Assembly (NCBI GenBank): GCA_001820055.1
Contig: MHOK01000005.1
Coordinates: forward strand, 7,371-71,370
From: Candidatus Spechtbacteria bacterium RIFCSPLOWO2_12_FULL_38_22
GTDB lineage: Bacteria > Patescibacteriota > Minisyncoccia > Spechtbacterales > 2-12-FULL-38-22
Direction of reading: 5' to 3'
DNA length: 64,000 bases
In this document: positions 1,672 through 49,715 of the stretch, one piece after another
Position numbering within the stretch: position 1 is the stretch's first letter
How the letters are laid out: the number at the start of each line of letters is the position of its first letter
Program-made: the position numbers and the translations under genes
Notes under the pieces: model-generated
What the model was told of the DNA's origin: nothing
What the model saw: only the letters and a program-made list of their open reading frames with translations
The model's database searches: none

Positions 1672-1786
1672 AAAAAATAGTACAACTTATTCTATCGTAA
1701 GCCTGCCTGTCTACCTGCACGTTGTACGTAGGCAGGCGGGAACGAAGTGGCAGCGTGGAATAAGCTGTACTATTTTTTATTTTTTA
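1672..1786. repeat. Inverted-repeat hairpin element, family A copy 1, placed as a bidirectional terminator between convergent gpmI and clpP
   Basis: Outer arms AAAATAGTACAACTTATTC / GAATAAGCTGTACTATTTT. Inner CCTGCCTG...CAGGCAGG palindrome. Conserved core GGGAACGAAGTGGCAGCGTGGAATAA. Related copies at 15634, 15729 and 36080. Confidence 0.6.
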
Positions 1787-15633: not shown

Positions 15634-15718
15634 AAAATAGTACAATTTATTCCGTCGTAAGCCTGCCTGCGGTAGGCAGGCGGGAACGAAGTGGCAGCGT
15701 GGAATAAATTGTGCTATT
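15634..15718. repeat. Inverted-repeat hairpin element, family A copy 2
   Basis: AAAATAGTACAATTTATTCCGTCGTAAGCCTGCCTGCGGTAGGCAGGCGGGAACGAAGTGGCAGCGTGGAATAAATTGT. Confidence 0.6.
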
Positions 15719-15728
15719 TGTTAAAAAA

Positions 15729-15856
15729 AGAGTTTGTATAATTTATTTCGTCGTAAGCCTGCCTACCGCAGGCAGGCGGGAATGAGCGTAGCGAATGGCA
15801 GCGTGAAATAAATTGTACAAACTCTTTTTTTAATAAACTGTACTATTTTTTATTTT
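15729..15856. repeat. Inverted-repeat hairpin element, family A copy 3, with conserved 25-nt tail
   Basis: Tandem to copy 2. Inner palindrome CCTGCCTACCGCAGGCAGGC. Tail AATAAACTGTACTATTTTTTATTTT is also present after copies 1 and 4. Confidence 0.6.
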
Positions 15857-21956: not shown

Positions 21957-21990
21957 CCGCTTATTACTTCCGACTTCTAATTTCCTGTTG

Positions 21991-22024: not shown

Positions 22025-22750
22025 TTAAAACGTATCCGCTCTAATAATATTATTCTCCGCTTTAAAATTTATCCAGTCTTCAACAATTCTGCGACAACTA
22101 CTTTCTCCTCCAAATAAGTTTAAATAAAAATCTCTTTCTGTAACTAGAGGGAAATTAGAATTTCCAATATAATCACAATAACTAGACCACCTATACCTTT
22201 CCAAAAAATTTAGTGCGTTGTTCTTGTTTTTAACTATTAATTCTTTCCAATCCGACTCCACTAGTTCTACAGGATTTGTATGAACATAGCTAAATATAAC
22301 CATTAATTGTTCGTTAGTCTTAATTTTAACACTTCTATATCTACCCTGAAATATGCCACCCATACCACTCCTATTGTACTTCTCATTAAAATATCCCGTA
22401 TATCCATTGCCTAATTTCTTCATAAATAGAGATATACCGCCATCGTTTATCTCTCTCAAAATTAAATGAAAATGATTGCGCATAAGAACAAGGGCTAAAA
22501 TAGCAACTATCGGCTTACGTTGTTTAACACTTCTAGCCTCTAACTTCTTAGGGGTTGAACCCCCAGGAAGTCGTCTTTCGTCATTCTTTAAGTCTCCTAT
22601 AACAATAAGCTCCTTGTTATTAAACCAATATAATGATTCAATAAAGCGCAAATAATCTTTATCGTCTAAAAATATATCGCGTTTATCATATCCGCGATTA
22701 TATACATGGTATATTCCATTTATTTCAAAATCTCTAGGTGGTGAAGCCAT
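22025..22750 (-). mobile_element. IS200/IS605-like Y1 HUH transposase, REP-associated (RAYT)
   Basis: 241 aa. YHVYNRGYDKRDIF N-terminal motif. HUH motif NHFHLIL. Catalytic Tyr region YVHTNPV. Flanked on both sides by REP palindromes. One REP-like copy at 22546-22575 lies in-frame inside the CDS (RLPGGSTPKKL). Confidence 0.65.
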
Positions 22751-22798: not shown

Positions 22799-22874
22799 TA
22801 AATTAGCCACCGAGTCCGCCGAAAGGGCGAATAAACTCCGCGAGGCGAACCAAAACTCTTTGACTTTTCCTACG

Positions 22875-24239: not shown

Positions 24240-24293
24240 CAATACAGTTAGTAGTGAGTAGTTGGTAGGGAGTAGTGGATAACAACAAAAAAC

Positions 24294-24367
24294 CCGCCCA
24301 TAGCTCAATCCGGCAGAGCAGCTCCCTCTTAAGGAGAAGGTTTCAGGTTCAATTCCTGATGGGCGGA
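24294..24367 (+). tRNA. tRNA-Lys (anticodon CTT)
   Basis: Manual fold. Acceptor CCGCCCA/TGGGCGG. D-stem GCTC/GAGC. Anticodon loop CTCTTAA (CUU). T-arm TCAGG-TTCAATT-CCTGA. Discriminator A. CCA not encoded. Confidence 0.78.
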
Positions 24368-24464
24368 CACTCTAGAAAACGGCTCGTACTACTTCAATAA
24401 TACTGGACATTTTTCATACAAAAATCCTTGATTTAACAAATATAGTATGGTAGCATAGATAAAT

Positions 24465-36006: not shown

Positions 36007-36079
36007 AAAACAGTCTTTATTCAATGTCGTTTACTTGACGCACAACATAAGTACATACAAGAAAATAAAACAAAAACAA

Positions 36080-36190
36080 AAGAGTCTGTATAATTTTATT
36101 TCGTCGTAAGTGGGAATGAGCGTAGCGAATGGCAGCGTGAAATAAAATTATACAGACTCTTTTGTTAATAAACTGTACTGTTTTTTATTT
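36080..36190. repeat. Inverted-repeat hairpin element, family A copy 4 (lacks the inner palindrome module)
   Basis: AGAGTCTGTATAATTTTATTTCGTCGTAAG-TGGGAATGAGCGTAGCGAATGGCAGCGTGAAATAAAATTATACAGACTCT plus the AATAAACTGTACTGTTTTTTATTTTTAC tail. Confidence 0.6.
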
Positions 36191-37363: not shown

Positions 37364-37600
37364 TTTATTGACAGACGAAGATGTGGTTTTTAATTTCTCG
37401 ATAATATATTTCTATAGCTTAAGGGTTGAATAAATACACCATTCAGCTACAATCTAAGAGTATTTAATATATAATCTGCGTAATCAAAAATGCTGCTTTC
37501 GCAGCACTCCTATAGTATTCAGCATAGCAGTTACACCCTATTTGTCAATAGGTCTAGGTGGAAAAAGTGTTAATATCGCATAGTGACTGTATTACTATAT

Positions 37601-37815
37601 TACTAGATTACAAAATTACTAAATTACCAGATTACAGAAACGCCGGATTACTAGATTACAAAATTACTAAATTACCAGATTATTTACATGACCCTGCGGT
37701 TGTACGGTTATATAGTCATCTTATTATGTAGTTATATAGCCGTCTTGTTACATGGTTATATGGTTATGTAGTTATTGTTATATAGTTATATAGTCATCTT
37801 GTTATTAGTTATCTT
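37601..37815 (+). repeat. Upstream repeat module (family U), 5' of pcrA
   Basis: Two tandem copies of ATTACTAGATTACAAAATTACTAAATTACCAGATTA, followed by TTATATAGTCATCTTRTTAT direct repeats. Confidence 0.5.
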
Positions 37816-37820: not shown

Positions 37821-39734
37821 ATGGATATTTTAAAAAATTTAAACGAAAAACAAAAGCAGGCAGTTAGTATAACTGATGGCCCACTTTTGATTTTGGCGGG
37901 GCCGGGAAGCGGAAAAACACGAACCCTTACACACAAAATTGTTTATTTAATTCTCAAACAAGTAAGCCCTCATAATATACTTGCCGTAACTTTTACAAAC
38001 AAGGCCGCTTCCGAAATGAAAAACCGCGTATCGGGCCTGCTTTCTGGGCCAAATGTTAAAAATCAAATGTCCAGTGTGTCGTCGGCCATGCCGACGATCG
38101 GGACCTTTCACTCCATATGCGTAAAAATTTTACGAACAGAAGCTAAAAACTTGGGTTATAACTCAAGTTTCACTATATATGACAACCAAGATCAGTTAAG
38201 TTTAATAAAAAATATAATGAAAAGCTTTGAAATGGACACTGAACAACTTCCCCCGTCTCGCGTGGCTTCTTTTATAAATGACGCAAAAGATAATTTAGTG
38301 TCGCAGTCAGAATTTCAACTAACGGCGTATAATACAGCCACGGAAAAGACATCAAAAGTGTACAGCGAATATCAAAAAAGGCTGAAAAACATAAATGCTT
38401 TTGATTTTGGCGATCTTATTACGCAGGTTGTGTTCTTGTTTCGAGAAAATAAAAACATTCTAGAAAAATACCAAAATCGTTTTCACTATATTTTGGTGGA
38501 TGAATACCAAGACACAAATACCGCCCAGTACACCTGGTTGAAACTGCTTGCGCAAAAAAACAACAACATCTGTGTAGTAGGGGATGATGCTCAAGCAATA
38601 TATGGTTGGCGCAACGCTAATTTTAGAAATATCTTAAACTTTCAAAAAGATTGGCCTGACGCTGAAATTATAAAATTAGAACAAAATTACAGATCAACCC
38701 AAAACATAGTGCTCGGTGCCTCAAATCTTATTAAAACCAACACTCTTGGCTATCCAAAAAAACTATGGACCGAAAATACTATCGGAGATCCTATATTCAT
38801 ATGCGAACTGGGAAACGAATATGAAGAGAGTGAGTTTATAATAAGCCAAATAGAACGGCTCACTGAACAAAAGCAGTACCAACTTAAAGATTTTGTTGTT
38901 TTATATAGAACAAATGCCCAATCTCGCCCGATAGAACAAATGTTCTTGAAATATGATATACCCTACAAAATAGTTGGCGGGTTAAAATTTTATCAAAGAC
39001 AAGAAGTAAAAGATGTTATTGCTTGGCTGCGCTTGTTACAAAATCCTTACGATGAAGCATCTGTTCAGAGACTCGAGCGATTAAAATTAAAGGATCTGCT
39101 AAAAAATACTCAAAACGAAGCACGGACAAAAAAGCAGGCGATTGGTGTACTGCTTAAAAAAATTAAAGACTGTGCTGGAGAAAACCCCAGTTTAGGTAAA
39201 TTGTTAAAATATGTAATTGAAATATCAAATTTTGAAATTATGTTGCGCGACAGCACAGAGAAGGGGGAGGAAAAATGGCAAAACGTACAAGAACTCTTAT
39301 CCGTCGCCCAAGACTACGGACAAATAAACGTACGGGAAGCCATAGATACCTTCCTAGAAAACGTAACTTTGGCGCAAGAAGCAGATAATATAGAATACAG
39401 CTCACAACTGGTGCACCTAATGACTCTTCATATGGCAAAGGGGTTAGAATTTCCAGTGGTTTTTATTGCAGGATGCGAAGATGGTCTTTTACCTCACTCA
39501 AGTAGCATGACCAGCGTAGAAGAATTAGAAGAAGAGCGTCGTCTTGCATATGTCGGGGTAACGCGAGCAAAAGACAGGGTTTATATGTTATTTGCGCGCC
39601 AACGGATGTTATGGGGAAATATTCAATCTAACCCTCCTAGCAGTTTTCTACATGAACTACCGCAAGAAAATATACAATTTAAACCCCTTTATGAAGAATT
39701 GGAAACAGAAGAAGATATCATAGAAATAGATTAG
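37821..39734 (+). CDS. pcrA: ATP-dependent DNA helicase, UvrD/PcrA family
   Basis: Walker A AGPGSGKTRTL. Helicase motifs II (DEYQDTN) to VI. 637 aa, shorter than typical. Confidence 0.85.
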   Translation: MDILKNLNEKQKQAVSITDGPLLILAGPGSGKTRTLTHKIVYLILKQVSPHNILAVTFTNKAASEMKNRVSGLLSGPNVKNQMSSVSSAMPTIGTFHSICVKILRTEAKNLGYNSSFTIYDNQDQLSLIKNIMKSFEMDTEQLPPSRVASFINDAKDNLVSQSEFQLTAYNTATEKTSKVYSEYQKRLKNINAFDFGDLITQVVFLFRENKNILEKYQNRFHYILVDEYQDTNTAQYTWLKLLAQKNNNICVVGDDAQAIYGWRNANFRNILNFQKDWPDAEIIKLEQNYRSTQNIVLGASNLIKTNTLGYPKKLWTENTIGDPIFICELGNEYEESEFIISQIERLTEQKQYQLKDFVVLYRTNAQSRPIEQMFLKYDIPYKIVGGLKFYQRQEVKDVIAWLRLLQNPYDEASVQRLERLKLKDLLKNTQNEARTKKQAIGVLLKKIKDCAGENPSLGKLLKYVIEISNFEIMLRDSTEKGEEKWQNVQELLSVAQDYGQINVREAIDTFLENVTLAQEADNIEYSSQLVHLMTLHMAKGLEFPVVFIAGCEDGLLPHSSSMTSVEELEEERRLAYVGVTRAKDRVYMLFARQRMLWGNIQSNPPSSFLHELPQENIQFKPLYEELETEEDIIEID

Positions 39735-39769: not shown

Positions 39770-40582
39770 ATGGTGCAAAATATAAAAAACTTATTAGAAA
39801 AATACAATGTAACACCGAACAAAGTGCTGGGGCAAAATTTTTTAATAAACGAAGGTGTCGCAGATGAGCTTATCAAAGCGACGTGCTTAACAAAAGATGA
39901 TACTGTGGTTGAGGTCGGGCCGGGAACGGGTGTCATCACGAAAAAATTAGCGCAGATTGCAAAAAAAGTAATAGCTGTGGAAAAAGACCCTAAACTTATC
40001 CCAATTCTCCAAAAAGAACTAAAAACTTTTCTTAATATTGAAATTATAAACGAGGACATTCTTAAATTCAATCCCGCAAACTACTCACTACAAACTACCT
40101 GCCTACCGGACAGGCAGGCTCACTACTCACTACTTGGCGCCCCTCCCTATTATCTGACCGGACGCCTGTTTCGTCACTTTTTAGAACTCTCTCTTATTCG
40201 ACCGACACAAATCTCCCTTATTATACAGAAAAATGTCGCTCAAAGAATTATTGCAAAACCACCAAAATCTAATATCCTAGCAACATCTATTCAATTTTAT
40301 GGAGAACCAAGTATTATCAATATAATTTCTAAAAACTCTTTTTGGCCCCGACCCAAAGTTGATTCTGCTATTTTGGTGATTAAAGATATAAAAAATCCTA
40401 CCACAAATGAGCAAAACTTTTTTAAAATTGTGCGCGCTGGCTTTTCTTCACCAAGAAAACAGCTCAAATCAAACCTAAAACAACAATTTAAACTAGATAC
40501 GGCGTTGGAAATAGACTTTTCGCGCAGAGCAGAAACACTCACCATAAAAGAATGGGCATACTTAACAGAAAAACTGCGCTAG
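39770..40582 (+). CDS. rsmA: 16S rRNA (adenine1518/1519-N6)-dimethyltransferase
   Basis: VLGQNFLINEGV ... VVEVGPGTGVITKKL SAM-binding motif. Degenerate NLPYNIS region (APPYYLTG). Contains a 42-bp palindrome-bearing insertion at 40080-40133. Confidence 0.85.
   Translation: MVQNIKNLLEKYNVTPNKVLGQNFLINEGVADELIKATCLTKDDTVVEVGPGTGVITKKLAQIAKKVIAVEKDPKLIPILQKELKTFLNIEIINEDILKFNPANYSLQTTCLPDRQAHYSLLGAPPYYLTGRLFRHFLELSLIRPTQISLIIQKNVAQRIIAKPPKSNILATSIQFYGEPSIINIISKNSFWPRPKVDSAILVIKDIKNPTTNEQNFFKIVRAGFSSPRKQLKSNLKQQFKLDTALEIDFSRRAETLTIKEWAYLTEKLR
40080..40133 (+). repeat. Palindromic mini-element with 12-bp flanking direct repeats inside the rsmA reading frame
   Basis: ACTACTCACTAC-AAACTA-CCTGCCTACCGGACAGGCAGG-CTC-ACTACTCACTAC. 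The palindrome matches the inner module of family A repeats (CCTGCCTACCGCAGGCAGGC). Confidence 0.5.
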
Positions 40583-40591: not shown

Positions 40592-43021
40592 TTGTTAGGG
40601 GAAAACTTCTTGAGCAAACGTGCTCTTCTATTGTATAATAAATCTATAACTAGTATGGATTTTTATAGAAAACTCCGCAAATTTTTTATTACAAAAAATC
40701 TGCATATGTCGCAGAGTATTCTTAGTATTTCGCTGTCCATAAGATACTCAAAATACTTCCTCACAGCTATCGTTTTTGTAGTATTTGGGGGATTTTTCTT
40801 TTCAGCGCAACCAACAGACGCGTTCGGATTTTTAGCGTGGTTCGGTGTTGGTTTATTAGCGGATATACTTACTGGTGGACACGTCTTAAGTGCCGTAGCA
40901 GCACCCTTCTTCGAAGCCTTAATGAAGATATTGACCGAATTTATATTTCCAATTGTTGAAGCTGTCATAACCTCAATATTATCCTTCATAAACTTCTTAC
41001 TCACTGGAATTGTATATGTGGCAAAAACCATAATGGAGTTTGCTTTAAACTTTTCCCTTACCGCTCCTTACACAGACACAAGCCAAGGAGTTATAAAAGC
41101 CGCATGGCCGATATTTAGAGATTTGGCAAATATGGGACTTATTCTAGTACTAGTAGCTATCGGCATCGGGACAATACTTAACCTAAAGACAAACCGCAAC
41201 CAATTGATGCCCTTTATTATAATCGCGTTTCTAATTAACTTTACTCCGATGCTTACGGGCATCGTTATAGATTTAAGTAACTTAACCGCACGTATCTTTT
41301 TTGACGCGGCGCAAAATGCCTCAAACGCGTTTCTAGCTGGGAATCCATTTTCAGGTTCAATGGACAGACTTGGGGGAAGCATACCACTAATAGGTAGAGG
41401 AATATCAGGAGATGCGTTCGGAGCAACAGATTTTTCTGGCATCTCAATTTTTGCCATAATGACTACCATATTTTTACTTGTCCTAATTTTTGCGTACTTA
41501 CTGCTAGGCGCGCTATTTTTGGGTAGAACTTTGGCGCTTTGGTTGCTTGTTATATTTTCTCCTATAGCGTTTGTGGCTTATATACTTCCCTCGACCAGAA
41601 AAGTTTTTGATAACTGGTGGAACAACTTTTTAAAATGGTCCCTCATCGCAATACCCCTTATATTCTCTTTGTGGCTAGCGGGTATATTTTTACATAACAC
41701 AAGTGTTGGTTGTCAGGCGATATCTCAAAGTGCGATAGAACAAAATATTGGCGAAAACTTAGAGGAAAACGACGGAACAATAACAGGAGAGTCGTCGTTA
41801 GCAGGAGATGACTACGCAACCATACTTTATCCTGTAACCGCCGCGCAAACCAATACCGGCACAAATATGATTTGCGGAATTACATCTATGATATTTGCTC
41901 TTGGGACGCTATTTGTTGGCATATCTATGAGCTTAAAAAGTTCTGCCACAGGGGCGAACATTATAATATCGCGCGCTAAAAAACTGAAAGATGCGATGAT
42001 GAAAAAAGCTTCAAAGTGGGCAGGCACTGAAGCTGAAAAAAGGGGAAGACAACTTACGGCAAGACCGCTTTCAAAAGCGGGGCAGGGCTTGGCAGATTCT
42101 CGCCTTGGGCGCAGCGCTCTAGGGTCACCACTTCGCAACCTCGGGCTTGCGATGCAACGCCCTGCTGTAAAATGGGCTCAACAATATAAAGAGCACGAAA
42201 AGAAATTCCAAGGCATGAGCTGGGAACAAATGAAAGGAATGTTGTTTGAACGCACAGACAAAGGGTCTGCTGCGTGGGCATACGCCGCTAAAAACCACGC
42301 CGGAGATTTAAGAAAAACCTTAGATGATCCAAAAACTGGAGGTGGCCTAAGAAAAGTTATGAAAGCAAAGATGAAAAAAGCTAATTTACGAGGCGATGAC
42401 TCTATGAAAGAGGTAGAAAAAATTGATCCAAAAACCGCAGCAGAAACAAAACATGCCGGTATCAGTGATGAAGGAAAACGACTAGATGCTATAAAAAATG
42501 AAATACATAAGATAGTAGAAAAGCTAGATGACAAAGCGGTCGCAAACCTATCTAATTCGTCTCTGGGAGATACTAGAGTTGTAAAAGCGCTAGAGGAACA
42601 AGGCAAGTTAACTAAGGGTGCCATTGAAAATCTGGCAAAAGAAGAAACACGACTTGCAACGCTGGACACCATTCTGCAAGAAAACTACAAAAAAGAATTG
42701 GTCAAAGAATTAAAGAAAATGACATCAGAAGAAAGAATAAAAACATTTGGATCAGTTGGATCACTTATAGCGAGAGGGGGGGATTTATCACCCGAAGCAT
42801 ACAAAAAATTCCTATCAAGTCCTGAAAACTATAAAAAAATGTTGCGATACAAAAAGGATAAAAGTGGGGGGCGTGTTAGCCCGTACTTGGAAACCATAGA
42901 GGCTCACCCTTATGCGGCGGCGTTTCACTTCACAACCAAAGAATCTGTCCGGGAAGGACTAACAAAAAAAGATTTCGAGACTTTTAGAAAAGAAATGACC
43001 TCAAAGGAAGATAAAAAATAA
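40592..43021 (+). CDS. VirB6/TrbL-like polytopic membrane protein with long hydrophilic C-terminal domain
   Basis: ~8-10 TM helices in the first ~400 aa. Charged Lys/Ala-rich ~400-aa C-terminal extension. Position at the head of the VirB3/VirB4 cluster. True start may be 40655 or 40706. Confidence 0.45.
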   Translation: MLGENFLSKRALLLYNKSITSMDFYRKLRKFFITKNLHMSQSILSISLSIRYSKYFLTAIVFVVFGGFFFSAQPTDAFGFLAWFGVGLLADILTGGHVLSAVAAPFFEALMKILTEFIFPIVEAVITSILSFINFLLTGIVYVAKTIMEFALNFSLTAPYTDTSQGVIKAAWPIFRDLANMGLILVLVAIGIGTILNLKTNRNQLMPFIIIAFLINFTPMLTGIVIDLSNLTARIFFDAAQNASNAFLAGNPFSGSMDRLGGSIPLIGRGISGDAFGATDFSGISIFAIMTTIFLLVLIFAYLLLGALFLGRTLALWLLVIFSPIAFVAYILPSTRKVFDNWWNNFLKWSLIAIPLIFSLWLAGIFLHNTSVGCQAISQSAIEQNIGENLEENDGTITGESSLAGDDYATILYPVTAAQTNTGTNMICGITSMIFALGTLFVGISMSLKSSATGANIIISRAKKLKDAMMKKASKWAGTEAEKRGRQLTARPLSKAGQGLADSRLGRSALGSPLRNLGLAMQRPAVKWAQQYKEHEKKFQGMSWEQMKGMLFERTDKGSAAWAYAAKNHAGDLRKTLDDPKTGGGLRKVMKAKMKKANLRGDDSMKEVEKIDPKTAAETKHAGISDEGKRLDAIKNEIHKIVEKLDDKAVANLSNSSLGDTRVVKALEEQGKLTKGAIENLAKEETRLATLDTILQENYKKELVKELKKMTSEERIKTFGSVGSLIARGGDLSPEAYKKFLSSPENYKKMLRYKKDKSGGRVSPYLETIEAHPYAAAFHFTTKESVREGLTKKDFETFRKEMTSKEDKK

Positions 43022-43035
43022 CAAACACAAACATT

Positions 43036-43611
43036 ATGTTGGATATTGCCCTTAATAACTACGTACAAGCATTTGATACAACTCCGCAGAAGATAAAGGA
43101 TGTGCTTTTTGCCGACTTTACATCATCGGCAATAAAAAACATTACTCACCGACATAACGCGCAAAATAACATGCTGGATATATCTGCAACCATTGGTTAT
43201 GTACTAGTTGGCCTTATTCCCGTAAAAAACATTATTGAAGTTTTAAAATTAGAAGCGCAACTTGATCAAAACACAGCTCGCAATATAGCCTATGACATAC
43301 GCGAACAGATATTCGCGCCCATAGCTCAAGAACTTGCTTCAATACAAGCGCAAGCGCAAAACAGTTGGGGACAAATCAACGTACTTCAACCGCAAACAAT
43401 GCTTACTGTAGCTCCTGTTTTAGACGAATCAATCACAAGAGAAAAACTACAAATGATTCCTCCTGCGTTACAAGACCATCCTGCCCTAGAACTCCCCACA
43501 AAAGTAGCGCCCGCCCCGCCTCAAAACTTGCCAACAGAACCAAAAGCAATAGACAATATTCCGCCCGACAATCGAATAGATTTAAGAGACAAAAGAGATA
43601 CAAGGTTTTAA
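43036..43611 (+). CDS. Hypothetical soluble protein in the T4SS-like cluster
   Basis: 191 aa. No TM. Gln/Pro-rich C-terminus. Confidence 0.3.
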   Translation: MLDIALNNYVQAFDTTPQKIKDVLFADFTSSAIKNITHRHNAQNNMLDISATIGYVLVGLIPVKNIIEVLKLEAQLDQNTARNIAYDIREQIFAPIAQELASIQAQAQNSWGQINVLQPQTMLTVAPVLDESITREKLQMIPPALQDHPALELPTKVAPAPPQNLPTEPKAIDNIPPDNRIDLRDKRDTRF

Positions 43612-43634
43612 CGCCTACTGATAAACCCGTACAC

Positions 43635-43695
43635 TATTACTAGATTGCAGAAGTACCAAATTACTAGATTACAAAATTACTAAATTACCAGATTT
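43635..43695 (+). repeat. Upstream repeat module (family U), 5' of the VirB3-like gene
   Basis: ATTACTAGATTGCAGAAGTACCAAATTACTAGATTACAAAATTACTAAATTACCAGATTTG. Confidence 0.5.
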
Positions 43696-43717
43696 GTTAT
43701 CTTGTTATTTAATTATA

Positions 43718-44119
43718 ATGCAATATTCAACTCCACAATTTATAGACAGGGAACAAAAGCTGCTGGGGCCACTAACTGTACACCAAACAGTTATTCTTGG
43801 TTTAACTACTGTGTTTTTGGTAATATCCTATTTTATATTTAATTTCTTTTTGTTTAGCGTGTTACTCGTAATTCTTGGAGGCACGAGTATCTCAATATCT
43901 TTTATTAAAATAAACGACAGACCAGTATACCAGTTTGTAACTTCTTTTTTTGGATATTTTTTAAAACCCCGCATATACATATGGCAAGGAGAATCTCAAA
44001 ATCCTGTTGCGCAACCTCAAACCACGCAAAAGACACAACAAGAAACTGAGCCTCAAAAGAGATCTCCCCAAATTACAAAAAAAGAACTAGAAGAACTGAC
44101 AGAATTTCTTAACAAATAA
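43718..44119 (+). CDS. VirB3-like small membrane protein
   Basis: Two adjacent TM helices near the N-terminus. Immediately upstream of VirB4. The ORF track starts at TTG 43694. Confidence 0.3.
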   Translation: MQYSTPQFIDREQKLLGPLTVHQTVILGLTTVFLVISYFIFNFFLFSVLLVILGGTSISISFIKINDRPVYQFVTSFFGYFLKPRIYIWQGESQNPVAQPQTTQKTQQETEPQKRSPQITKKELEELTEFLNK

Positions 44120-44120
44120 T

Positions 44121-44771
44121 ATGGCACAACCCTCAACTCAACAATTTATACCGATAGATAATATAAGAGATGATGTGGTTATTTTAAAAGGCGGGCAAAT
44201 GCGCGCTGTTTTACAAGTATCCAGCATAAACTTGGCCCTAAAATCGCAAGACGAACAGGACGCAATAATTCAAAGTTACGGAGCGTTTCTTAATTCTCTA
44301 GAATTCCCGATACAGATACTCGCAAATTCCCGCTATATGAACCTAGACGAATATCTTAAAAACCTCAACGACATGATAGAGAAACAGCCATCCGAACTGA
44401 TGCAGATACAAACCCAAGAATATATAAATTTTATACAAGAATTCTTGTCACAAGACTATGTAGTATCTACAAACTTTTACGTTACGGTGCCCTTCAGTCT
44501 GGTTGATATAGATATTCAAAAGGGCGGTGCGCAAGAAAGATTTAAAGCCTTACTTGGAAAACAAAGCGAACTATCCTATATAGACCCCAAAGAATTTGTA
44601 TCTTACAGGAACCAACTAGTGCAGAGGGTTGAATTTATAGCAAGCGGTTTGCACAGAATGGGACTTGTTATAGATATGCTAAACACCGAACAGTTAATAT
44701 CCTTGTTTTGGAGCTTGTACAATCCCGAGGACTTAAAAAAAAGGTCTTTAGTAAAATCATTATTTGAATAA
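44121..44771 (+). CDS. VirB4/TrbE-family protein, N-terminal domain encoded as a separate ORF
   Basis: IPIDNIRDDVVILKGGQMRAVLQVSSINLALKSQDEQDAI... resembles the VirB4 N-terminal domain. Stop TAA overlaps the next ORF's start (TAATATG). Confidence 0.55.
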   Translation: MAQPSTQQFIPIDNIRDDVVILKGGQMRAVLQVSSINLALKSQDEQDAIIQSYGAFLNSLEFPIQILANSRYMNLDEYLKNLNDMIEKQPSELMQIQTQEYINFIQEFLSQDYVVSTNFYVTVPFSLVDIDIQKGGAQERFKALLGKQSELSYIDPKEFVSYRNQLVQRVEFIASGLHRMGLVIDMLNTEQLISLFWSLYNPEDLKKRSLVKSLFE

Positions 44772-46542
44772 TATGAAGCAGCTTGACGCACAACAAATCA
44801 ACCAGAAAGAACTTGAGCAAGAAAAAAAAAGGCGTTTAATAAATGTCCTGGCACCTCCGGTGGTAGAAATTGAAGCAGATTTTATAAAATTAGGTGGAGT
44901 ATTTGTTCGTACATTATTTATATCAAGTTACCCTAGATTTCTTTCACAAAACTGGATCAGTCCAATTATAAATTTGGACGAAACTGTTGATGTGTCCATA
45001 TTTATACAACCGATACCAACAGAATCTGTGCTTAAAAAACTGGAAAGCCAACTGACCGGCGTGGAAGCAGATATGATGGAGCGAGAAAAAAAGGGGCTGA
45101 TTCGCGACCCATTGCTTGAAGCGGCGTATACAAATATAGAAGATTTGAGAGATAAAATGCAAACCTCAGAAGAGAGGGTATTTAAGTTTGGGTTATATTT
45201 AATGCTTTACGGAAAAACAAAAGAAGCGCTTGAAGATGTTGAAAATAAAATTAAATCCCTACTGGAAAGTAGATTGATATACGCAAAACCCGTTGTATAC
45301 AAACAAGAACAGGGAATCGTGGGTGGACTACCTCTGGGTATAGACAACCTTAAATTAAACACGAGCCTAAACACATCATCGCTTTCTGCGTCTTTCCCTT
45401 TTGTTTCTTTTGACTTATCGGACAACAAGGGCATTCTTTATGGAATTAACCGACACAATTCAAGCCTAATACTATTTGACCGTTTCTCCTTAGAAAACGC
45501 AAATACTGTGGTTTTAGGAAAAAGTGGGGGGGGTAAAAGTTATGCTGTAAAATTAGAGATTCTGCGCTCTTTAATGCTTGGCATAGACAATATTGTAATA
45601 GATCCAGAAAATGAGTATAAATATCTTGCGGAAGCGACAGGAGGCAGTTTTTTTCATATATCGCTTACAAGCGGGGACCATATAAACCCTTTTGATATAC
45701 CCCAACCCCAACCAGACGATAAACCTCAAGAGGTTTATCGGGCTAATGTAATAACCTTAATGGGACTACTCAAACTTATGCTGGGCTCTATGACCCCAGA
45801 AGAAGAAAGCGTTTTAAATGAAGCAATAGACCAAACTTATGCCTCATACGATATTACAGCGGACACAGAGAGTTTCTGGAAAAAATCTCCACCCCTAATG
45901 AGAGACCTCCAGGCCGTGCTAGAAAGCATGCAAGGGGGAGAAGCGCTTGGACAACGGTTAGAAAAATATACGAAAGGCATCTATTCAGGATTTTTAAACG
46001 AAAGAACAAACGTAGAGCTAAACGACCAGCTGGTTGTTTTAAGCATAAGGGATATGGAAGAGGAACTGCGCCCAATAGCCATGTATATAATAATTGACTA
46101 TATCTGGGGAGCTATACGGCGGGAGCTTAAAAAAAGAATTTTAACAATAGACGAGGCTTGGTGGATGCTACAACAAAAAGAAAGTGCCTCGTTTTTGTTT
46201 GGAATTGCAAAACGAGCTCGTAAATACTTTTTGGGGTTAACAACTATCTCCCAAGATATAGCAGATTTTTTAAGCAGTGACTACGGCCGCGCTATTATTG
46301 CAAATTCTTCACTTCAAATTTTAATGAAGCAGTCTCCAACCACAATAGACCAAGTGCAAGAAGTATTTAATTTGACAGATGAAGAAAAACTACTGTTACT
46401 GGAGGACAATGTGGGCGAGGGTTTGTTTTTTGCGGGAACCAAGCATGTCGCCATAAAAATAATGTCCTCCTACATAGAAGACCAAATAATAACATCCGAC
46501 CCAGAGCAACTGCTTGAAATAAAAAGAATGAAAGAAAATTAA
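44764..46542 (+). CDS. VirB4/TrbE-family T4SS ATPase, C-terminal ATPase domain
   Basis: Walker A VVLGKSGGGKSY. DPENEY motif. Walker B ILTIDEAWWML. Probable ATG start at 44773. Confidence 0.85.
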   Translation: MNNMKQLDAQQINQKELEQEKKRRLINVLAPPVVEIEADFIKLGGVFVRTLFISSYPRFLSQNWISPIINLDETVDVSIFIQPIPTESVLKKLESQLTGVEADMMEREKKGLIRDPLLEAAYTNIEDLRDKMQTSEERVFKFGLYLMLYGKTKEALEDVENKIKSLLESRLIYAKPVVYKQEQGIVGGLPLGIDNLKLNTSLNTSSLSASFPFVSFDLSDNKGILYGINRHNSSLILFDRFSLENANTVVLGKSGGGKSYAVKLEILRSLMLGIDNIVIDPENEYKYLAEATGGSFFHISLTSGDHINPFDIPQPQPDDKPQEVYRANVITLMGLLKLMLGSMTPEEESVLNEAIDQTYASYDITADTESFWKKSPPLMRDLQAVLESMQGGEALGQRLEKYTKGIYSGFLNERTNVELNDQLVVLSIRDMEEELRPIAMYIIIDYIWGAIRRELKKRILTIDEAWWMLQQKESASFLFGIAKRARKYFLGLTTISQDIADFLSSDYGRAIIANSSLQILMKQSPTTIDQVQEVFNLTDEEKLLLLEDNVGEGLFFAGTKHVAIKIMSSYIEDQIITSDPEQLLEIKRMKEN

Positions 46543-46543
46543 T

Positions 46544-46897
46544 ATGGCTTTGCTCCACAAGAAATTAAAAAAGCGTATAGAAAAAGAATCTGTGTGGGGA
46601 GATAACTTCTTAATATTATTCTGGGCTATATTTATAGACATTATAGGATTTATTTCCGGATTATTGGGATTTCTTATTGTTCCTATAATATTTTCTAACA
46701 TTCTAAGTTCCATAGCCGGTATTCCTATTTTTGTTTGGGGTTATAAAAAATATAAAAAACGCGGAGGCTTTGGTGTTTGGAAATACATAAAACAAGTCTG
46801 GAGGACATCTCTAGCAGAAACGCTTGTAAGCCCGGGACCATGGTTAACTTTATTCGTAAGAAAAACAATACGAGGTAAAAAAATATTTAAATTCTAA
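46544..46897 (+). CDS. Small membrane protein in the T4SS-like cluster
   Basis: 117 aa. Basic N-terminus and 2-3 TM helices. Confidence 0.35.
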   Translation: MALLHKKLKKRIEKESVWGDNFLILFWAIFIDIIGFISGLLGFLIVPIIFSNILSSIAGIPIFVWGYKKYKKRGGFGVWKYIKQVWRTSLAETLVSPGPWLTLFVRKTIRGKKIFKF

Positions 46898-46898
46898 A

Positions 46899-48122
46899 AT
46901 GCTAAACTTCACAAAAAAGTCCACAAGCATTCTTGCGCTCTTCATACTAGTTTTTGGCGGTTGGGGTATAAACGCAAACACGCATGACACACGAGAAGCT
47001 GATATAATATATACTCCGCCATCCGAAGCAACTACCACAGCGGGAGAACCCATAGAACTGGGACCTATAAAATGCAACGTTAACTGGCCACGAATTCCTA
47101 TTCCGGGCGGAACTTTTGACCTAAACGAGTACTGCCAACCGGGCGCTTCAATAAGTATCGGCACCGTGATTGCCGCAATATATGCAACAGCACTCTGGCT
47201 TGGCGGTTTAATCGCATTTGGCGCTTTGTTTTATTCAGGGTTTTTATATATATTTTCTGGAAATGTTCCGGCAAATCGGTCTAAAGCGCGGGGTATGCTA
47301 GTTAATGTAGCATGGGGCATGGGAATACTACTACTTTCCTGGGTAACGCTCAGGTTGATAAATCCAGATATAACTAACCTAAAATTCCAAGAACCTCAAA
47401 AAACTAGAGTATGTCTGGACGCCAATCAGATAAACTGCATACCGGTGCCGGGTTTTATAGGAAGAGTCTCCTATAGCCCATACAATGCCGGAGATCCCTT
47501 GGAATCGGCTAGATGTATCGGGACAGGAGATGTGCGAGTGGGAGACTCCACTCTAAACAGTCTGGCAAATATTATGTGTGAAAGCGAAGAACTACTTAGA
47601 AAAGACGCCCATTCTTACCTAATACAGGCTGTCGGAAATTCAAATTGTTCTCAAGAGGATGTGGATGCGCTGTTGTTAAAAACAGAAACACTATGTCCTG
47701 CGAACCAGCCCGGAGATGAAGCGCTGGGAATAACCGGGGACACTGTGTCAACTGGTTTATGCTACTGGCAAGGACAATACGGTGGGGGAGCAGGAATATC
47801 TTTTGGAGCAAGCGGAGCTGTATATTTTCCGAATGACTATCTAGGCGATGCAGCTGATGATTTTTTGGAAATTGCTAACCTAGACATAATTGATGCTACG
47901 TCTCCCAGTGCCGAATTCGTTAATGCTATTCAAAAAAACCTTGACGCTGTTTTTGACTATTGTTCAAACGAAGATTCTAACCCCAACATCTGCATACTAC
48001 TGGACGAAGACGAATCCAACATCGCTGACCTAAACCCAGCACGAAGGGAGGCGCTACGTTGTTTCTGCACCAGGGACATATTACCATCCAAGTGGAACCC
48101 ATCTTTCCCTGAATGCAACTAA
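46899..48122 (+). CDS. Exported protein: VirB2/TrbC-like two-helix module fused to a Cys-rich ectodomain
   Basis: Signal peptide. Residues ~67-165 read IPGGTFDLNEYC...GGLIAFGALFYSGFLYIFSGNVPANRSKARGMLVNVAWGMGILLLSWVTLRLINPD, paralogous to the 23820 and 48132 proteins. C-terminal ~240 aa has 14 Cys. Confidence 0.45.
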   Translation: MLNFTKKSTSILALFILVFGGWGINANTHDTREADIIYTPPSEATTTAGEPIELGPIKCNVNWPRIPIPGGTFDLNEYCQPGASISIGTVIAAIYATALWLGGLIAFGALFYSGFLYIFSGNVPANRSKARGMLVNVAWGMGILLLSWVTLRLINPDITNLKFQEPQKTRVCLDANQINCIPVPGFIGRVSYSPYNAGDPLESARCIGTGDVRVGDSTLNSLANIMCESEELLRKDAHSYLIQAVGNSNCSQEDVDALLLKTETLCPANQPGDEALGITGDTVSTGLCYWQGQYGGGAGISFGASGAVYFPNDYLGDAADDFLEIANLDIIDATSPSAEFVNAIQKNLDAVFDYCSNEDSNPNICILLDEDESNIADLNPARREALRCFCTRDILPSKWNPSFPECN

Positions 48123-48131
48123 ACACCCTTT

Positions 48132-49715
48132 ATGATTATTAAAAATAAAAAATACATAATACTGGGCTTATCTATTTTGGTACTATTGCCTACTACCTTT
48201 GTATACGCCGCAGAGTCCCCAAACATAATCTTTAATACGAACTTCCCAGCAATTCCCGCTCCAGTACCAGGAGGGTTTTTTGATTTAAATTGCATAGAAG
48301 GATTAAACTCTAATCTGTGTAGTAGCAACTTTGAATATGCTCCAACTATTGGAAACATAATTTTATTTATATTTACCGCCGCGATATGGATCGGCGGACT
48401 TGTCGCATTTGGGGTTTTATTCTACGGCGGGTTTTTATATATATTTTCTGGAAACGCTCCGGCTAATCGATCTAAAGCGCGAGGCATGTTGGTTAATGTA
48501 GCATGGGGAATTGGGATTTTACTCCTTTCTGTTGTATTTTTAAACTTAATAAACCCTGATGTTGCTAACTTGCGTTTTGAGAACCCCGAAGCCATCCAAA
48601 CTTGTCCCGACGGCACAACTGATTGTATAACCTACCCAGAATTGCCAAAACAATACAACACATTTGGATGTAGTTGGAACGAACAGGAAGACAAGTGCGA
48701 AATAGCCCAAGATACCGTAGCGTGTACACTTGGGTTTAAAACCTCTGGTGTGTGTGAAAAAGTTAATGGACTTCATAACCAAAATAGCTTACTTGATAAC
48801 GAAAAGGTTTGTAAAAGCTTAAAATCAAATGCTTGCGCGCTAAGTTCTGAGGGCGAAGACGCAGTTGGCAATGTTGGTTCCTATGTAGCATGTCTTGGAA
48901 CTTGCCTGTCACAAGGAAAATTAGAGGCAACATGCCAAAACGAGTGTTCTGTTTATACAGGAGGGGGCAGCGGATACTCTTGCCGGGAAAGATGCCAGGA
49001 AACCCTTCCTCCACAACTAGCGCATGAGTGTTCAGAGCTTCCGTCATGCTTAGAAACTCCCCCCGGAGTTACACCTGCAGCTGACGGATATTTTAAACTA
49101 CCCGCTTCAAATTTTTATACCAAAAGATACGAAGACGCATCGTGTGGCAAATTAGAACTAATACAAGCAATATATGTTGTGGCAAAAAGATGGTCAGAAA
49201 TAGGGGGGTCTAAAATGAATGTAACGGATTTAAACGGGGGAGGAGATTACAACTCCGGAGTTTGCCACTCAACCCATAATAGAGGCATCGACGTTGATAT
49301 TCATATTGAAGGTGTAACGCTGCACAAAACAGCAAATTCTGGAGAGTGGCTAATTAAACTGGGTAAACTACTAGTGGACACCGGGGTCGTGTCAGGATTC
49401 ATACACAGAACTGATGCTCCCCAGGATGCCGCAGCTTTAGAAGTTGTTAATAGATACTTTGAGAATAAATTCCCAAATCGAAACCCCTGGCACCCACCAT
49501 GGGCTCTAAATGAGGGGTTCTGGAGGACGGATACTGCAGGTAATCACGAAGATCATATGCACATACATATTGGCGACTCAGACGGAGCAACGGGGACAGG
49601 AATTCAACCTGGACCATACAATAGGTCTTGTAGTAGGGATACAACCTTAAGATATTATTCGAGCTCCGATTATTGTTGCTATAGAACAGATGGAGGGCAA
49701 CAAAAGTGTGGTTAG
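48132..49715 (+). CDS. Exported protein: VirB2/TrbC-like module, Cys-rich region, C-terminal LAS/M15-like zinc peptidase domain
   Basis: Residues ~40-145 are paralogous to the 46899 protein (FSGNAPANRSKARGMLVNVAWGIGILLLS). Residues ~375-482 read CHSTHNRGIDVDIH ... NHEDHMHIH, fitting SxHxxGxxxD plus HxH of Hedgehog/DD-peptidase-fold (M15) enzymes. Confidence 0.5.
   Translation: MIIKNKKYIILGLSILVLLPTTFVYAAESPNIIFNTNFPAIPAPVPGGFFDLNCIEGLNSNLCSSNFEYAPTIGNIILFIFTAAIWIGGLVAFGVLFYGGFLYIFSGNAPANRSKARGMLVNVAWGIGILLLSVVFLNLINPDVANLRFENPEAIQTCPDGTTDCITYPELPKQYNTFGCSWNEQEDKCEIAQDTVACTLGFKTSGVCEKVNGLHNQNSLLDNEKVCKSLKSNACALSSEGEDAVGNVGSYVACLGTCLSQGKLEATCQNECSVYTGGGSGYSCRERCQETLPPQLAHECSELPSCLETPPGVTPAADGYFKLPASNFYTKRYEDASCGKLELIQAIYVVAKRWSEIGGSKMNVTDLNGGGDYNSGVCHSTHNRGIDVDIHIEGVTLHKTANSGEWLIKLGKLLVDTGVVSGFIHRTDAPQDAAALEVVNRYFENKFPNRNPWHPPWALNEGFWRTDTAGNHEDHMHIHIGDSDGATGTGIQPGPYNRSCSRDTTLRYYSSSDYCCYRTDGGQQKCG

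What the first reader, a model, noticed from the sequence alone, without database searches (positions are those of the whole stretch)
40080..40133. Palindromic mini-element with 12-bp flanking direct repeats inserted in-frame into rsmA
Within the rRNA dimethyltransferase gene, the 21-bp palindrome CCTGCCTACCGGACAGGCAGG is flanked by perfect 12-bp direct repeats ACTACTCACTAC. The insertion totals 42 bp (14 aa, YSL...YSL duplication at protein level). The same palindrome is the separable inner module of the family A hairpin repeats: present in copies 1-3 and cleanly absent from copy 4. This suggests an independently mobile mini-palindrome that generates target-site duplications and is tolerated in a loop of an essential enzyme.
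Basis: seen in the sequence. Interest (0 to 1): 0.62.

Follow-up and report, generated by a model that had tools for sequence, protein, structure and literature searches.

The report
Mini-palindrome inserted in-frame in rsmA
A 21-base hairpin-forming DNA snippet, one copy of a tiny repeat family found in many uncultivated bacteria and viral contigs, sits in-frame in a floppy loop of an rRNA methyltransferase gene; the "target duplications" beside it are an older 7-base tandem repeat, not insertion scars.

Summary
CCTGCCT-ACCGGAC-AGGCAGG lies at 40098-40118 between two perfect ACTACTCACTAC copies, inside rsmA of a Spechtbacteria-like (Patescibacteria) genome. The same palindrome is an optional module of the intergenic "family A" hairpins.

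The insertion is 21 bp (7 aa), not 42 bp. Deleting exactly the palindrome leaves five in-register TACNNNN heptads. It also leaves a 51-nt loop, the same length as in orthologues that lack a palindrome and carry heptads there. So the 12-bp repeats are a pre-existing heptanucleotide array, not a target-site duplication. Other copies show no systematic duplication either.

The palindrome belongs to a very widespread 19-21-bp family (consensus CCTGCCTGCCGGCAGGCAGG). It occurs in more than 120 metagenome stretches and 135 viral-contig stretches. It is usually intergenic and often sits at the apex of a larger hairpin or nested in itself. Inside long ORFs the 21-bp variant is enriched. In Chitinophagaceae glmM it is present or absent among 86-89% identical orthologues, without duplication.

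The closest known kind is REP/RAYT-type hairpin elements. A RAYT-like gene lies at 22025-22750, but its flanking palindrome is a different one. The mobilisation mechanism is inferred, not shown.

The parts
40098..40118 (.). 21-bp mini-palindrome CCTGCCT-ACCGGAC-AGGCAGG, the actual insertion. It encodes about residues 110-117 (T-CLPDRQA). The boundary is ambiguous by 1 nt because C precedes and follows it.
40082..40097 (+). Left part of the pre-existing heptad array: TACTCAC, TACAAAC, TA|.
   Evidence: After removal of the palindrome, lag-7 identity is 0.61 and 0 of 2000 shuffles reach it.
40119..40137 (+). Right part of the heptad array: |CTCAC, TACTCAC, TACTTGG. It contains the right 12-bp 'direct repeat' and runs into the conserved strand YSLLG before motif IV (GAPPYY).
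39770..40582 (+). rsmA/ksgA (16S rRNA A1518/A1519 dimethyltransferase), 270 aa. It is the host gene of the insertion.
   Evidence: PF00398 and named RsmA hits from Cand. Spechtbacteria. B. subtilis KsgA 6IFS, E = 2e-38. AF2 pLDDT 91.7.
15758..15776 (.). 19-bp copy CCTGCCTACCGCAGGCAGG in the terminal loop of family A hairpin copy 3.
15662..15680 (.). 19-bp copy CCTGCCTGCGGTAGGCAGG in family A copy 2. It is the exact reverse complement of the copy-3 module, so it lies in the opposite orientation within the same frame.
1702..1736 (.). Copy in family A copy 1, with the apex enlarged to 21 nt, about 16 nt more than the 5-nt apex of copies 2 and 3 (CCTGCCT-GTCTACCTGCACGTTGTACGT-AGGCAGG).
36075..36166 (.). 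Family A copy 4, the empty site: CGTAAG|TGGGAATG. It has no mini-palindrome and no duplication.
22025..22750 (-). RAYT-like Y1 (HUH) transposase gene. It is a candidate class of trans-acting enzyme. Its cognate flanking palindrome is a different one, TTCCTGGGGGTTSAACCCCCAGGAA (21925-21955, 21990-22019, 22766-22800, and in-frame inside the gene at 22545-22572).

Best explanation
The feature is one in-frame copy of a non-coding, hairpin-forming mini-repeat of 19-21 bp. The family consensus is CCTGCCTGCCGGCAGGCAGG; the copy here is the 21-bp variant CCTGCCTACCGGACAGGCAGG. It was copied into the heptanucleotide tandem array (TACNNNN x5) that encodes the variable surface loop between strand beta4 and the motif-IV strand of RsmA.

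It added 7 residues (CLPDRQA) and made no target-site duplication. The flanking 12-bp repeats are two phases of the older heptad array. The copy survives in an essential gene for three reasons: its length is a multiple of three, it contains no stop codon, and the loop is structurally free.

Shown here:
- The insertion size and the pre-existing array.
- The dispersed family, and its presence or absence at orthologous sites.
- The absence of duplications.
- The preference for hairpin apices.
- The excess of 21-bp variants in ORFs.

Inferred:
- How copies are made. The most likely route is single-strand, hairpin-guided cut-and-paste or copy by a trans-acting HUH/Y1 transposase of the RAYT type, as for REP/REPIN elements. 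Single-stranded loops (hairpin apices, slipped tandem repeats) would be the preferred targets.
- That the copy has no function for the cell (neutral or selfish passenger).
For: Insertion size and array:
- Removing 40098-40118 leaves TACTCAC TACAAAC TACTCAC TACTCAC TACTTGG.
- The palindrome-free loop is 51 nt in the window, L088, L002 and L001.
- L002 has TACAGCT x4 and no palindrome.
- Lag-7 identity is 0.45-0.66 in all 8 loci, with 0-5 of 2000 shuffles reaching it.

Independent palindromes at the same rsmA site:
- L001 has a 30-bp GC palindrome.
- L087 has a 14-bp one.
- L085 has a 38-bp GC-rich insert.
- P0002 (89% identical) has a peptide, LPAYRTGRQ, that fits the same palindrome read in another frame.

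Same module in family A:
- Three copies are filled and one is empty.
- The module occurs in both orientations.
- It lies in the terminal loop of the larger hairpin.

Wide family:
- The spacers are strongly non-random: GG 66, G 24, GGA 17.
- 42 and 93 viral-contig stretches were found.

No duplication:
-.

Apex preference:
- 25% of copies have inverted flanks of 6 bp or more, against 3% of controls.
- 8 of 121 are nested in their own family.
- glmM shows nested insertions exactly at the apex.

Frame selection:
- 21-bp variants are 9 coding and 8 non-coding. The 19-, 20- and 22-bp variants (none of them a multiple of three) are 10 and 72. Fisher p = 5e-4.
- Real genes carry the peptide LPTGQAG.

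Presence or absence among 86-89% identical Chitinophagaceae GlmM:
-.

Loop tolerance:
-.

RAYT link:
- Y1_Tnp genes lie in the window, L004, L101 and L121, each next to a palindrome.
- In L101 a perfect 30-bp member of this family lies 110 bp upstream of the gene.
Against: - No empty allele was found in a close relative of this rsmA. The 96% identical relative L003 has the identical loop. The nearest palindrome-free orthologues are only 58-62% identical.
- The RAYT-like gene of the window is flanked by a different palindrome.
- Only one of about 165 palindrome-bearing loci (L101) shows this family next to a RAYT-like gene. Chance would give that roughly 1 time in 10.
- No RAYT-like gene was found in the viral loci.
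- The collection scans required 18 fixed bases, so sequence identity among the hits is partly imposed by the query.
- For so short a sequence, built from CCTG/CAGG tetramers, recurrent independent origin cannot be fully excluded.
- The coding versus non-coding classification rests on stop-free stretches, not on gene calls.
Confidence: 0.72

Rival explanations
1. A 30-bp miniature transposon (MITE-like) inserted by a DDE-type transposase and duplicated a 12-bp target (ACTACTCACTAC), so that 42 bp were added.
For: Perfect 12-bp direct repeats flank the palindrome 42 bp apart. L001 likewise has perfect 15-bp repeats around its palindrome.
Against: - The repeats are units of a heptad array that exists without any palindrome in L002 and L088.
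- Removing 42 bp would make the loop shorter than in any of the 34 aligned orthologues. Removing 21 bp restores the common 51-nt loop.
- In L001 the repeats are 44 bp apart, out of frame with each other. They are again heptads.
- The 12-mer also occurs in a heptad run upstream of tRNA-Lys.
- Family A, glmM and about 96% of 169 copies show no duplication.
Confidence: 0.04
2. Origin in place, with no mobility. The palindrome arose locally by template switching (quasi-palindrome correction) or by slippage in a repeat-prone loop. Its similarity to other copies would be convergence of simple CCTG/CAGG sequence.
For: - The loop is a slippage-prone heptad array.
- Other palindromes in these genomes look locally made. 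In window pcrA 38079-38097, one arm is the conserved PT(I/V)G codons.
- L088 rsmA has a 12-bp-stem palindrome with no length change relative to orthologues.
Against: - The rsmA copy shares 19 bases with the family A module, plus 2 extra loop bases, in a 38% GC window where 0.02 such palindromes are expected.
- The same 18 or more bases recur at well over a hundred unrelated loci, with a biased spacer.
- There are clean 21-bp presence/absence alleles in glmM.
- Neither arm matches the neighbouring rsmA sequence.
Confidence: 0.1
3. A selected functional element. The hairpin or its peptide is kept because it does something: an mRNA pause, stability or regulatory hairpin, a protein-binding or DNA-uptake-type site spread by molecular drive, or a useful loop peptide.
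For: - The loop is fully conserved between two assemblies that are 96% identical.
- Many intergenic copies sit in terminator-like hairpins.
- In ORFs one reading frame (LPTGQAG) dominates.
Against: - The rsmA relatives use three different frames (CLPDRQA, LPAYRTGRQ, and none at all), so no peptide is conserved.
- Orthologues do without it.
- No T-run follows the hairpin in rsmA.
- No Rfam family matches.
- Uptake sequences spread by point mutation and conversion, not by 21-bp insertions.
Confidence: 0.1
4. An artefact of assembly or library preparation (palindromic linker or adapter, or a chimeric join).
For: Short perfect palindromes recurring across many metagenome assemblies could suggest a technical sequence.
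Against: - The copy is in frame in an intact gene.
- It is identical in an independent ENA assembly (L003).
- Natural variants exist (LPTGQAG, LPAGQAG, LPPGQAG, MPTGQAG, and a decayed LTTVLAG) across NCBI, ENA, JGI and Logan assemblies.
- The 21-bp variant is enriched in ORFs.
- The sequence does not resemble any adapter or linker sequence I can recall (my own knowledge, not checked here).
Confidence: 0.02

Closest known systems
REP / REPIN elements mobilised by RAYT (REP-associated tyrosine transposases, HUH Y1 family)
   Same: - A short (about 20-40 bp) GC-rich imperfect palindrome, present in many copies per genome and mostly extragenic.
- No target duplication, as expected for single-strand HUH transposition.
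- Y1_Tnp/RAYT-like genes flanked by palindromes are present in these genomes (window 22025-22750, L004, L121). In L101 one is preceded by a member of this very family.
   Different: - Copies occur inside genes, in frame.
- They are singlets rather than inverted doublets.
- They nest at hairpin apices.
- The same about 20-mer is seen in two phyla and in viral contigs, whereas REPs are normally species-specific.
- The window's RAYT-like gene is flanked by another palindrome.
- A 5' GTAG signature is not a constant feature.
Rickettsia palindromic elements (RPE)
   Same: A palindromic selfish repeat inserted in frame into protein-coding genes, including essential ones. It adds a surface peptide without destroying function. 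(My own knowledge of Ogata et al. 2000; the term appears in PMC10969869.)
   Different: RPEs are 100-150 bp and confined to Rickettsia. They have no sequence similarity to this family. The element here is 19-21 bp, and most of its copies are intergenic.
Small dispersed repeats (SDR) of Nostoc and other cyanobacteria (Elhai et al. 2008, Genome Res 18:1484; cited in PMC3116915)
   Same: Very small (21-27 nt) hairpin-forming dispersed repeats with evidence of mobility and no known transposase. They occur in genomes that are also rich in heptanucleotide tandem repeats (STRR). This is from my own knowledge; the paper could not be read here.
   Different: Different sequences and a different phylum. 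The in-frame genic copies and the cross-phylum spread seen here are not something I can attribute to SDRs.
Mobile GC clusters of yeast mitochondrial genomes (including in-frame copies in var1 and the 'byp' inserts of Magnusiomyces)
   Same: Short GC-rich palindromes scattered through an AT-rich genome. They are sometimes inside coding sequence and are optional between strains (my own knowledge).
   Different: They are organellar. Some classes leave short duplications, and byps are skipped by the ribosome. Here the excess of multiple-of-three lengths indicates that the insert is read through.

Membership tests
MITE (miniature inverted-repeat transposable element) | Target-site duplication flanking each copy | tested here: not met
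   The rsmA 'duplication' is a pre-existing heptad array. Family A and glmM filled/empty pairs show none. Only 4% of 169 copies have an adjacent repeat of 6 bp or more.
MITE (miniature inverted-repeat transposable element) | Length of about 50-500 bp, with terminal inverted repeats derived from a parent IS | tested here: not met
   The element is 19-21 bp and consists only of the two 7-10-bp arms and a short spacer. No parent IS was identified.
REP/REPIN-RAYT | Short (about 20-40 bp) imperfect palindrome, many copies, mostly extragenic | tested here: met
   There are 5 copies in 64 kb. Across collections, 72 of 82 classifiable 19- and 20-bp copies lie outside long ORFs.
REP/REPIN-RAYT | A RAYT gene flanked by the same palindromes | tested here: inconclusive
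   The window's RAYT-like gene (Pfam Y1_Tnp 27.9 bits against a cutoff of 23; NCBIfam REP_Tyr_transpos 42.6 against a cutoff of 80) is flanked by a different palindrome. L101's RAYT-like gene has a perfect member of this family 110 bp upstream, but the contig ends inside the gene. That is a single case.
REP/REPIN-RAYT | Conserved 5' GTAG next to the hairpin; replicative unit is an inverted doublet (REPIN) | tested here: not met
   GTAG occurs only inside the TACC variant (GGTAGGCAGG) and is absent from the commoner symmetric form. Most copies are singlets.
REP/REPIN-RAYT | Cleavage and strand transfer of the hairpin by the RAYT | not testable with these tools
   This needs biochemistry.
Rickettsia palindromic elements | In-frame insertion of a palindromic repeat into ORFs | tested here: met
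   rsmA. Also glmM, an aminotransferase, a ComF-like gene, a PIF1-like helicase and an Eco57I/MmeI-type methylase.
Rickettsia palindromic elements | Length of 100-150 bp, RPE consensus sequences, Rickettsia host | tested here: not met
   The element is 19-21 bp. The hosts are a Spechtbacteria-like bacterium and Chitinophagaceae.
RsmA/KsgA (host gene) | RrnaAD fold with SAM-binding motif I and motif IV N(L/I)PY | tested here: inconclusive
   PF00398 matches, solved KsgA structures match and the AF2 model is confident. But motif IV reads GAPPYY, with Ala in place of the usual Asn, as in most Spechtbacteria relatives. Activity was not tested.

The most novel reading that the evidence does not exclude
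The 19-21-bp palindrome CCTGCCTGCCGGCAGGCAGG is a 'nano-transposon'. On this reading it is the smallest class of mobile DNA. It would be moved in trans by RAYT-like Y1 transposases and shared across phyla (Patescibacteria, Bacteroidota) and viral contigs. It would home to single-stranded loops (hairpin apices, slipped tandem repeats), nest in itself, and repeatedly remodel surface loops of essential proteins in frame. It has not been described by sequence in the open literature searched.
Probability: 0.3. Interest if true: 0.85.

Novelty: new variant of a known kind. Interest (0 to 1): 0.64.

Why it matters
- The family would extend the idea of 'repetitive extragenic palindromes' to elements that also enter genes. 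Copies persist there when their length keeps the reading frame.
- It gives a concrete source of lineage-specific loop insertions in conserved proteins of reduced-genome bacteria.
- The same about 20-mer occurs in a candidate-phyla-radiation bacterium, in Chitinophagaceae and in viral contigs. This raises the question of what common machinery or vector spreads it.
- The apex-nesting pattern gives a testable prediction: the targets are single-stranded loops.
- In practice, such inserts can mislead alignment, gene calling and phylogeny of marker genes from metagenome-assembled genomes.
- Perfect flanking repeats should not be read as target-site duplications when the site is a tandem repeat.

Tried and rejected
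It returned only distant RsmA genes (48% identity or less), so no Spechtbacteria reference genomes were obtained.
- No DNA is on record for P0002, the 89% identical relative with the palindrome apparently in another frame. Its nucleotide sequence is only back-inferred.
- Rfam found only two tRNAs in the window. Nothing matched the palindrome or family A.
- Literature searches for the exact sequences found nothing, and searches for in-frame palindromes in the candidate phyla radiation found nothing relevant. Elhai et al. 2008 could not be opened.
- A BLAST of the 30-bp perfect palindrome against cultured plasmids and phages gave only chance-level matches.
It found RAYT-like genes only in the window, L004, L101 and L121, and none in viral loci. 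There is no statistical enrichment near the palindromes.
- Translational bypassing (take-off and landing repeats around a hairpin, as in T4 gene 60) was considered. It was set aside because multiple-of-three lengths are enriched in ORFs and all rsmA inserts are open in frame.
- A strict sliding scan for 7-bp periodicity found no other heptad array in the window. It found only 8-bp arrays.
Full report

Yes.
- The + strand reads ACTACTCACTAC at 40080-40091.
- AAACTA follows, then CCTGCCTACCGGACAGGCAGG at 40098-40118.
- CTC follows, then ACTACTCACTAC again at 40122-40133.
- All of this lies inside a 270-aa ORF, 39770-40582.

The ORF is rsmA/ksgA.
- It carries PF00398.
- Its best named relatives are RsmA of Candidatus Spechtbacteria at 51-55% identity.
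- It matches B. subtilis KsgA 6IFS at E = 2e-38.

The repeats exceed chance.
- The 21-mer has no second match at up to 3 mismatches, with 0 expected.
- The 12-mer has 5 matches at up to 1 mismatch, against 0.14 expected.
- CCTGCC-N3-15-GGCAGG has 3 matches against 0.02 expected.
- The hairpin has 7-bp arms and a 7-nt loop. As single-stranded DNA it folds at -7.1 kcal/mol, z = -4.6.

The statement about the intergenic 'family A' hairpins is also correct.
- Copies at 1669-1779, 15629-15723 and 15725-15827 carry a CCTGCC...GGCAGG module directly after CGTAAG.
- Copy 4 (36075-36166) reads CGTAAG|TGGGAATG with nothing between.

- The family A module is 19 bp. It is identical to the rsmA copy apart from two extra loop bases in rsmA.
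- The module of copy 2 is the exact reverse complement of that of copy 3, so it sits in both orientations.
- The module of copy 1 has an apex about 16 nt longer than that of copies 2 and 3.

In the folded family A hairpins the module lies in the large terminal loop.

**2. The flanking 12-mers are not a target-site duplication.**

I fetched the DNA of eight orthologous rsmA loci. In every one, the stretch between DILKF and GAPPYY has a 7-bp periodicity. Lag-7 identity is 0.45-0.66, and 0-5 of 2000 shuffles reach it.

| Locus | Protein | Identity to window | Loop DNA |
|---|---|---|---|
| L002 | P0005 | 62% | (TACAGCT)x4, no palindrome |
| L088 | P0003 | 61% | TACGGCT TAGAGTT TACAGAT TACAGCT, no palindrome |
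| window | - | - | TACTCAC TACAAAC TACTCAC TACTCAC TACTTGG once 40098-40118 is deleted |
| L001 | P0004 | 58% | a 30-bp GC-rich palindrome between perfect 15-bp repeats; removing it leaves TACGAGT TACAAGT TACGAGT TACAAGG |

- With the palindromes removed, the loop is 51 nt in all four loci. It encodes the same pattern, xYxLQxTxYxLxG.
- The insertion is therefore 21 bp (7 aa), not 42 bp. The 42-bp spacing of the 12-mers equals the 21-bp palindrome plus three heptads.
- Removing 42 bp would give a loop shorter than in any of the 34 aligned relatives.
- The same 12-mer also occurs in a heptad run in the spacer upstream of tRNA-Lys (24251-24278). So it is a repeat motif of this genome and not a unique target.

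**3. The same rsmA site holds other palindromes in other lineages.**

- L001 has CCCGCCTGCGCCGAAACTTCGGCGGGCAGG.
- L087 has CCGCCAACTGGCGG.
- L085 has a 38-bp GC-rich insert that ends in GGCGGGCAGG.
- L084 and L086 have only heptads.
- P0002 is 89% identical to the window protein outside the loop. In the loop it reads KLPAYRTGRQV, which back-translates to the same palindrome in a different reading frame, with different flanking heptads. Its DNA is not on record.
- The closest relative, L003 (96% identical), has the identical loop.

**4. The palindrome belongs to a very widespread family.**

The hits are not chance.
- The free spacer is GG in 66, G in 24 and GGA in 17 of 124 matches. Four-base spacers are almost absent.
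- The base after the element is C in 92 of 124 matches.
- The flanks are otherwise unrelated, and most contigs have 30-50% G+C.

Viral contigs hold 42 stretches with this variant and 93 with the symmetric form CCTGCCTGCC...CAGGCAGG. Some have several copies per contig. The family consensus is therefore the perfect 20-mer CCTGCCTGCCGGCAGGCAGG.

Properties of the copies:
- **No duplication.** Only 4% have an adjacent direct repeat of 6 bp or more.
- **Hairpin apices.** 25% are bracketed by inverted repeats of 6 bp or more, against 3% of control positions, so they sit at the apex of a larger hairpin, including terminator-like ones.
- **Self-nesting.** 8 of 121 are nested in another copy of the same family.
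- **Frame selection.** The 21-bp variants are strongly enriched inside long stop-free stretches: 9 coding and 8 non-coding, against 10 and 72 for the variants whose length is not a multiple of three (19-, 20- and 22-bp). Fisher p = 5e-4. That is what selection for frame would produce.

Genes with an in-frame copy, nearly always read as LPTGQAG:
- an aminotransferase;
- a ComF-like protein;
- a PIF1-like helicase;
- an Eco57I/MmeI-type methylase;
- glmM.

**5. A clean presence/absence case in another phylum.**

The glmM hit (L167) belongs to Chitinophagaceae. Among orthologues that are 86-89% identical, four states occur:

| State | Example | Sequence at the site |
|---|---|---|
| empty (459 aa) | P0132 | SEKSNN\|KKIIIG |
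| +7 aa | several | LPTGQAG, LPAGQAG, LPPGQAG, MPTGQAG; one decayed copy LTTVLAG |
| +16 aa | P0131 | LPPG[RPDDLVGRG]QAG |
| +24 aa | P0141 | a further insert inside the +16 one |

At the DNA level:
- The empty site is AATAAC|AAAAAA.
- The filled site is GGCAAC|CTGCCTCCCGGACAGGCAGGT|AAAAAA. That is 21 bp with no duplication.
- The larger alleles carry extra palindromic DNA exactly at the apex (CCCG^GACAGG).

This shows gain or loss of the element, nesting at the apex, and occurrence in Bacteroidota as well as Patescibacteria.

**6. Effect on the protein.**

- An AlphaFold2 model built on 34 relatives is confident overall (mean pLDDT 91.7).
- The only weak stretch is residues 101-120 (block means 79 and 64). 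This is the loop between strand 90-94 and strand 119-123 that holds the insert.
- B. subtilis KsgA has a loop of similar length at that position.
- The insert is thus in a length-variable surface loop just before motif IV.

**7. How it may move.**

The features point to single-strand, hairpin-guided transposition of the HUH/Y1 type, as proposed for REP/REPIN elements and their RAYT transposases. Those features are the absence of duplications, the hairpin, both orientations, and the preference for loops.

RAYT-like genes are present.
- Window ORF 22025-22750 (-) matches Pfam Y1_Tnp at 27.9 bits (cutoff 23). It matches NCBIfam REP_Tyr_transpos at 42.6 bits, below the cutoff of 80.
- It is flanked by its own palindrome, TTCCTGGGGGTTSAACCCCCAGGAA, on both sides, and carries one copy in frame inside itself.
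- L004 and L121 show the same layout with other palindromes.
- In L101 a RAYT-like gene is preceded, 110 bp upstream, by the perfect 30-bp palindrome AATGCCCTGCCTGCCGGCAGGCAGGGCATT. An in-frame 21-bp copy lies 1.9 kb away.

That is one case, and the contig ends inside the gene. The window's RAYT-like gene has a different cognate palindrome, and no enrichment of RAYT genes near the palindromes could be shown. The mechanism is therefore an inference. I put it at about one in three.

**8. Comparison with known systems.**

- The element works most like a REP. It differs from REPs in five ways: it occurs in genes, it is a singlet, it nests at apices, it lacks a constant GTAG, and it is shared across phyla.
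- It resembles Rickettsia palindromic elements in entering ORFs in frame. It is five to seven times shorter than they are and unrelated in sequence.
- It fails the MITE test for both duplication and size.
- Cyanobacterial small dispersed repeats and mitochondrial GC clusters are further analogues. That comparison rests on my own knowledge, because the key paper could not be opened.
- The exact sequences do not occur in the searchable literature.

**9. Verdict.**

- The 'mobile mini-palindrome in a tolerated loop' reading is supported.
- The '42-bp insertion with 12-bp target-site duplication' reading is refuted.
- The copy in rsmA is one member of a widespread mini-palindrome family that is apparently undescribed by sequence. 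It is best classed as a new variant of REP-type hairpin repeats.
- How it is mobilised remains open.

Noticed in passing
window 40082-40137; L001, L002, L084-L088 rsmA loops: The loop before motif IV of Spechtbacteria rsmA is encoded by a heptanucleotide tandem array. The units are mostly TACNNNN. The unit sequence differs between lineages (TACTCAC, TACAGCT, TACGAGT, ATTACCA, TTCRAAA) while the 7-aa-periodic peptide pattern is kept. This suggests concerted turnover by slippage inside an essential gene.
   Followed up: partly
window 24251-24278: A run of four to five heptads (GTAGTGA GTAGTTG GTAGGGA GTAGTGG on the + strand) lies just upstream of tRNA-Lys (24294-24368). It includes an exact copy of the 12-mer that flanks the rsmA palindrome.
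   Followed up: partly
window 7025-7128, 37567-37700, 43628-43699 (also 37699-37805): Intergenic arrays of 8-bp-period repeats (ATTACTAG ATTACAAA ATTACTAA ATTACCAG). They recur at three spacers in both orientations, one of them between divergent genes upstream of pcrA. Their function is unknown.
   Followed up: no
window 22025-22750 (-), with 21925-21955, 21990-22019, 22545-22572, 22766-22800: A RAYT-like Y1 transposase gene is flanked on both sides by its own palindrome, TTCCTGGGGGTTSAACCCCCAGGAA. One copy lies in frame inside the gene (peptide RRLPGGSTPK). L004 has the same layout with GCCCGAGCCCCGAGCTCGGGC (peptide ARARGSGS) at the same variable region of the protein.
   Followed up: partly
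window 38079-38097 (pcrA/uvrD 37821-39734): The palindrome TCGTCGGC-CAT-GCCGACGA lies in a variable pcrA loop. Its right arm is the conserved PT(I/V)G codons and its left arm is lineage-specific. It looks like a locally templated (template-switch) palindrome rather than an inserted element.
   Followed up: partly
L087:1446-1550 (pcrA of a Spechtbacteria MAG): Two GC-rich palindromes lie in frame in pcrA (GGCAGGCAGGCCCGCCTGC, and GCGCCTGCCCGCCGAAGCCTCGGCGCAGGCGGGCC, which adds ARRSLGAGGP). The latter is absent from the window and L085 orthologues, and it is sequence-related to the L001 rsmA palindrome.
   Followed up: partly
L088:447-473 (rsmA of P0003): A perfect palindrome with a 12-bp stem, ATACCCAGCGGTCAGACCGCTGGGTAT, lies inside rsmA coding sequence. 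There is no length difference from orthologues (LQYPAVRPLGI against LELSLIRPTQI).
   Followed up: no
window 40139-40156 (GAPPYY) and alignment A1: Motif IV of this RsmA and of most Spechtbacteria relatives reads G-A-P-P-Y-Y (some read GNPPYY or GAIPYY). Ala replaces the Asn of the canonical N(L/I)PY motif of KsgA/Dim1/Erm. Whether the enzyme is still an active dimethyltransferase is untested.
   Followed up: no
window 1669-1779, 15629-15723, 15725-15827, 36075-36166: 'Family A' is a set of roughly 90-110-nt AT-rich long hairpins with a conserved GC-rich loop (GTCGTAAG...GGGAAYGA..GGCAGCGTG). DNA folding gives z = -6 to -10. They lie in spacers, two of them between convergent genes. They have no Rfam match and may be REPIN- or terminator-like elements in their own right.
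   Followed up: partly
window 40592-49715 and L084-L087: rsmA is followed by a conserved cluster of type IV secretion or conjugation-like genes (TrbL-like, PrgI-like, TraC-like, VirB4/TraG-type ATPase) in the fetched Spechtbacteria loci. The window shows a similar run of ORFs, which was not annotated here.
   Followed up: no
IMGVR_UViG_3300038551_000082 (L221, L224, L230, L250): One 28.8-kb viral contig (about 58% G+C) carries at least seven 21-bp copies. Most are read as PLPTGQAG inside long ORFs, and some are tandem or nested. They could be multiple insertions or a repeat-containing structural protein.
   Followed up: no
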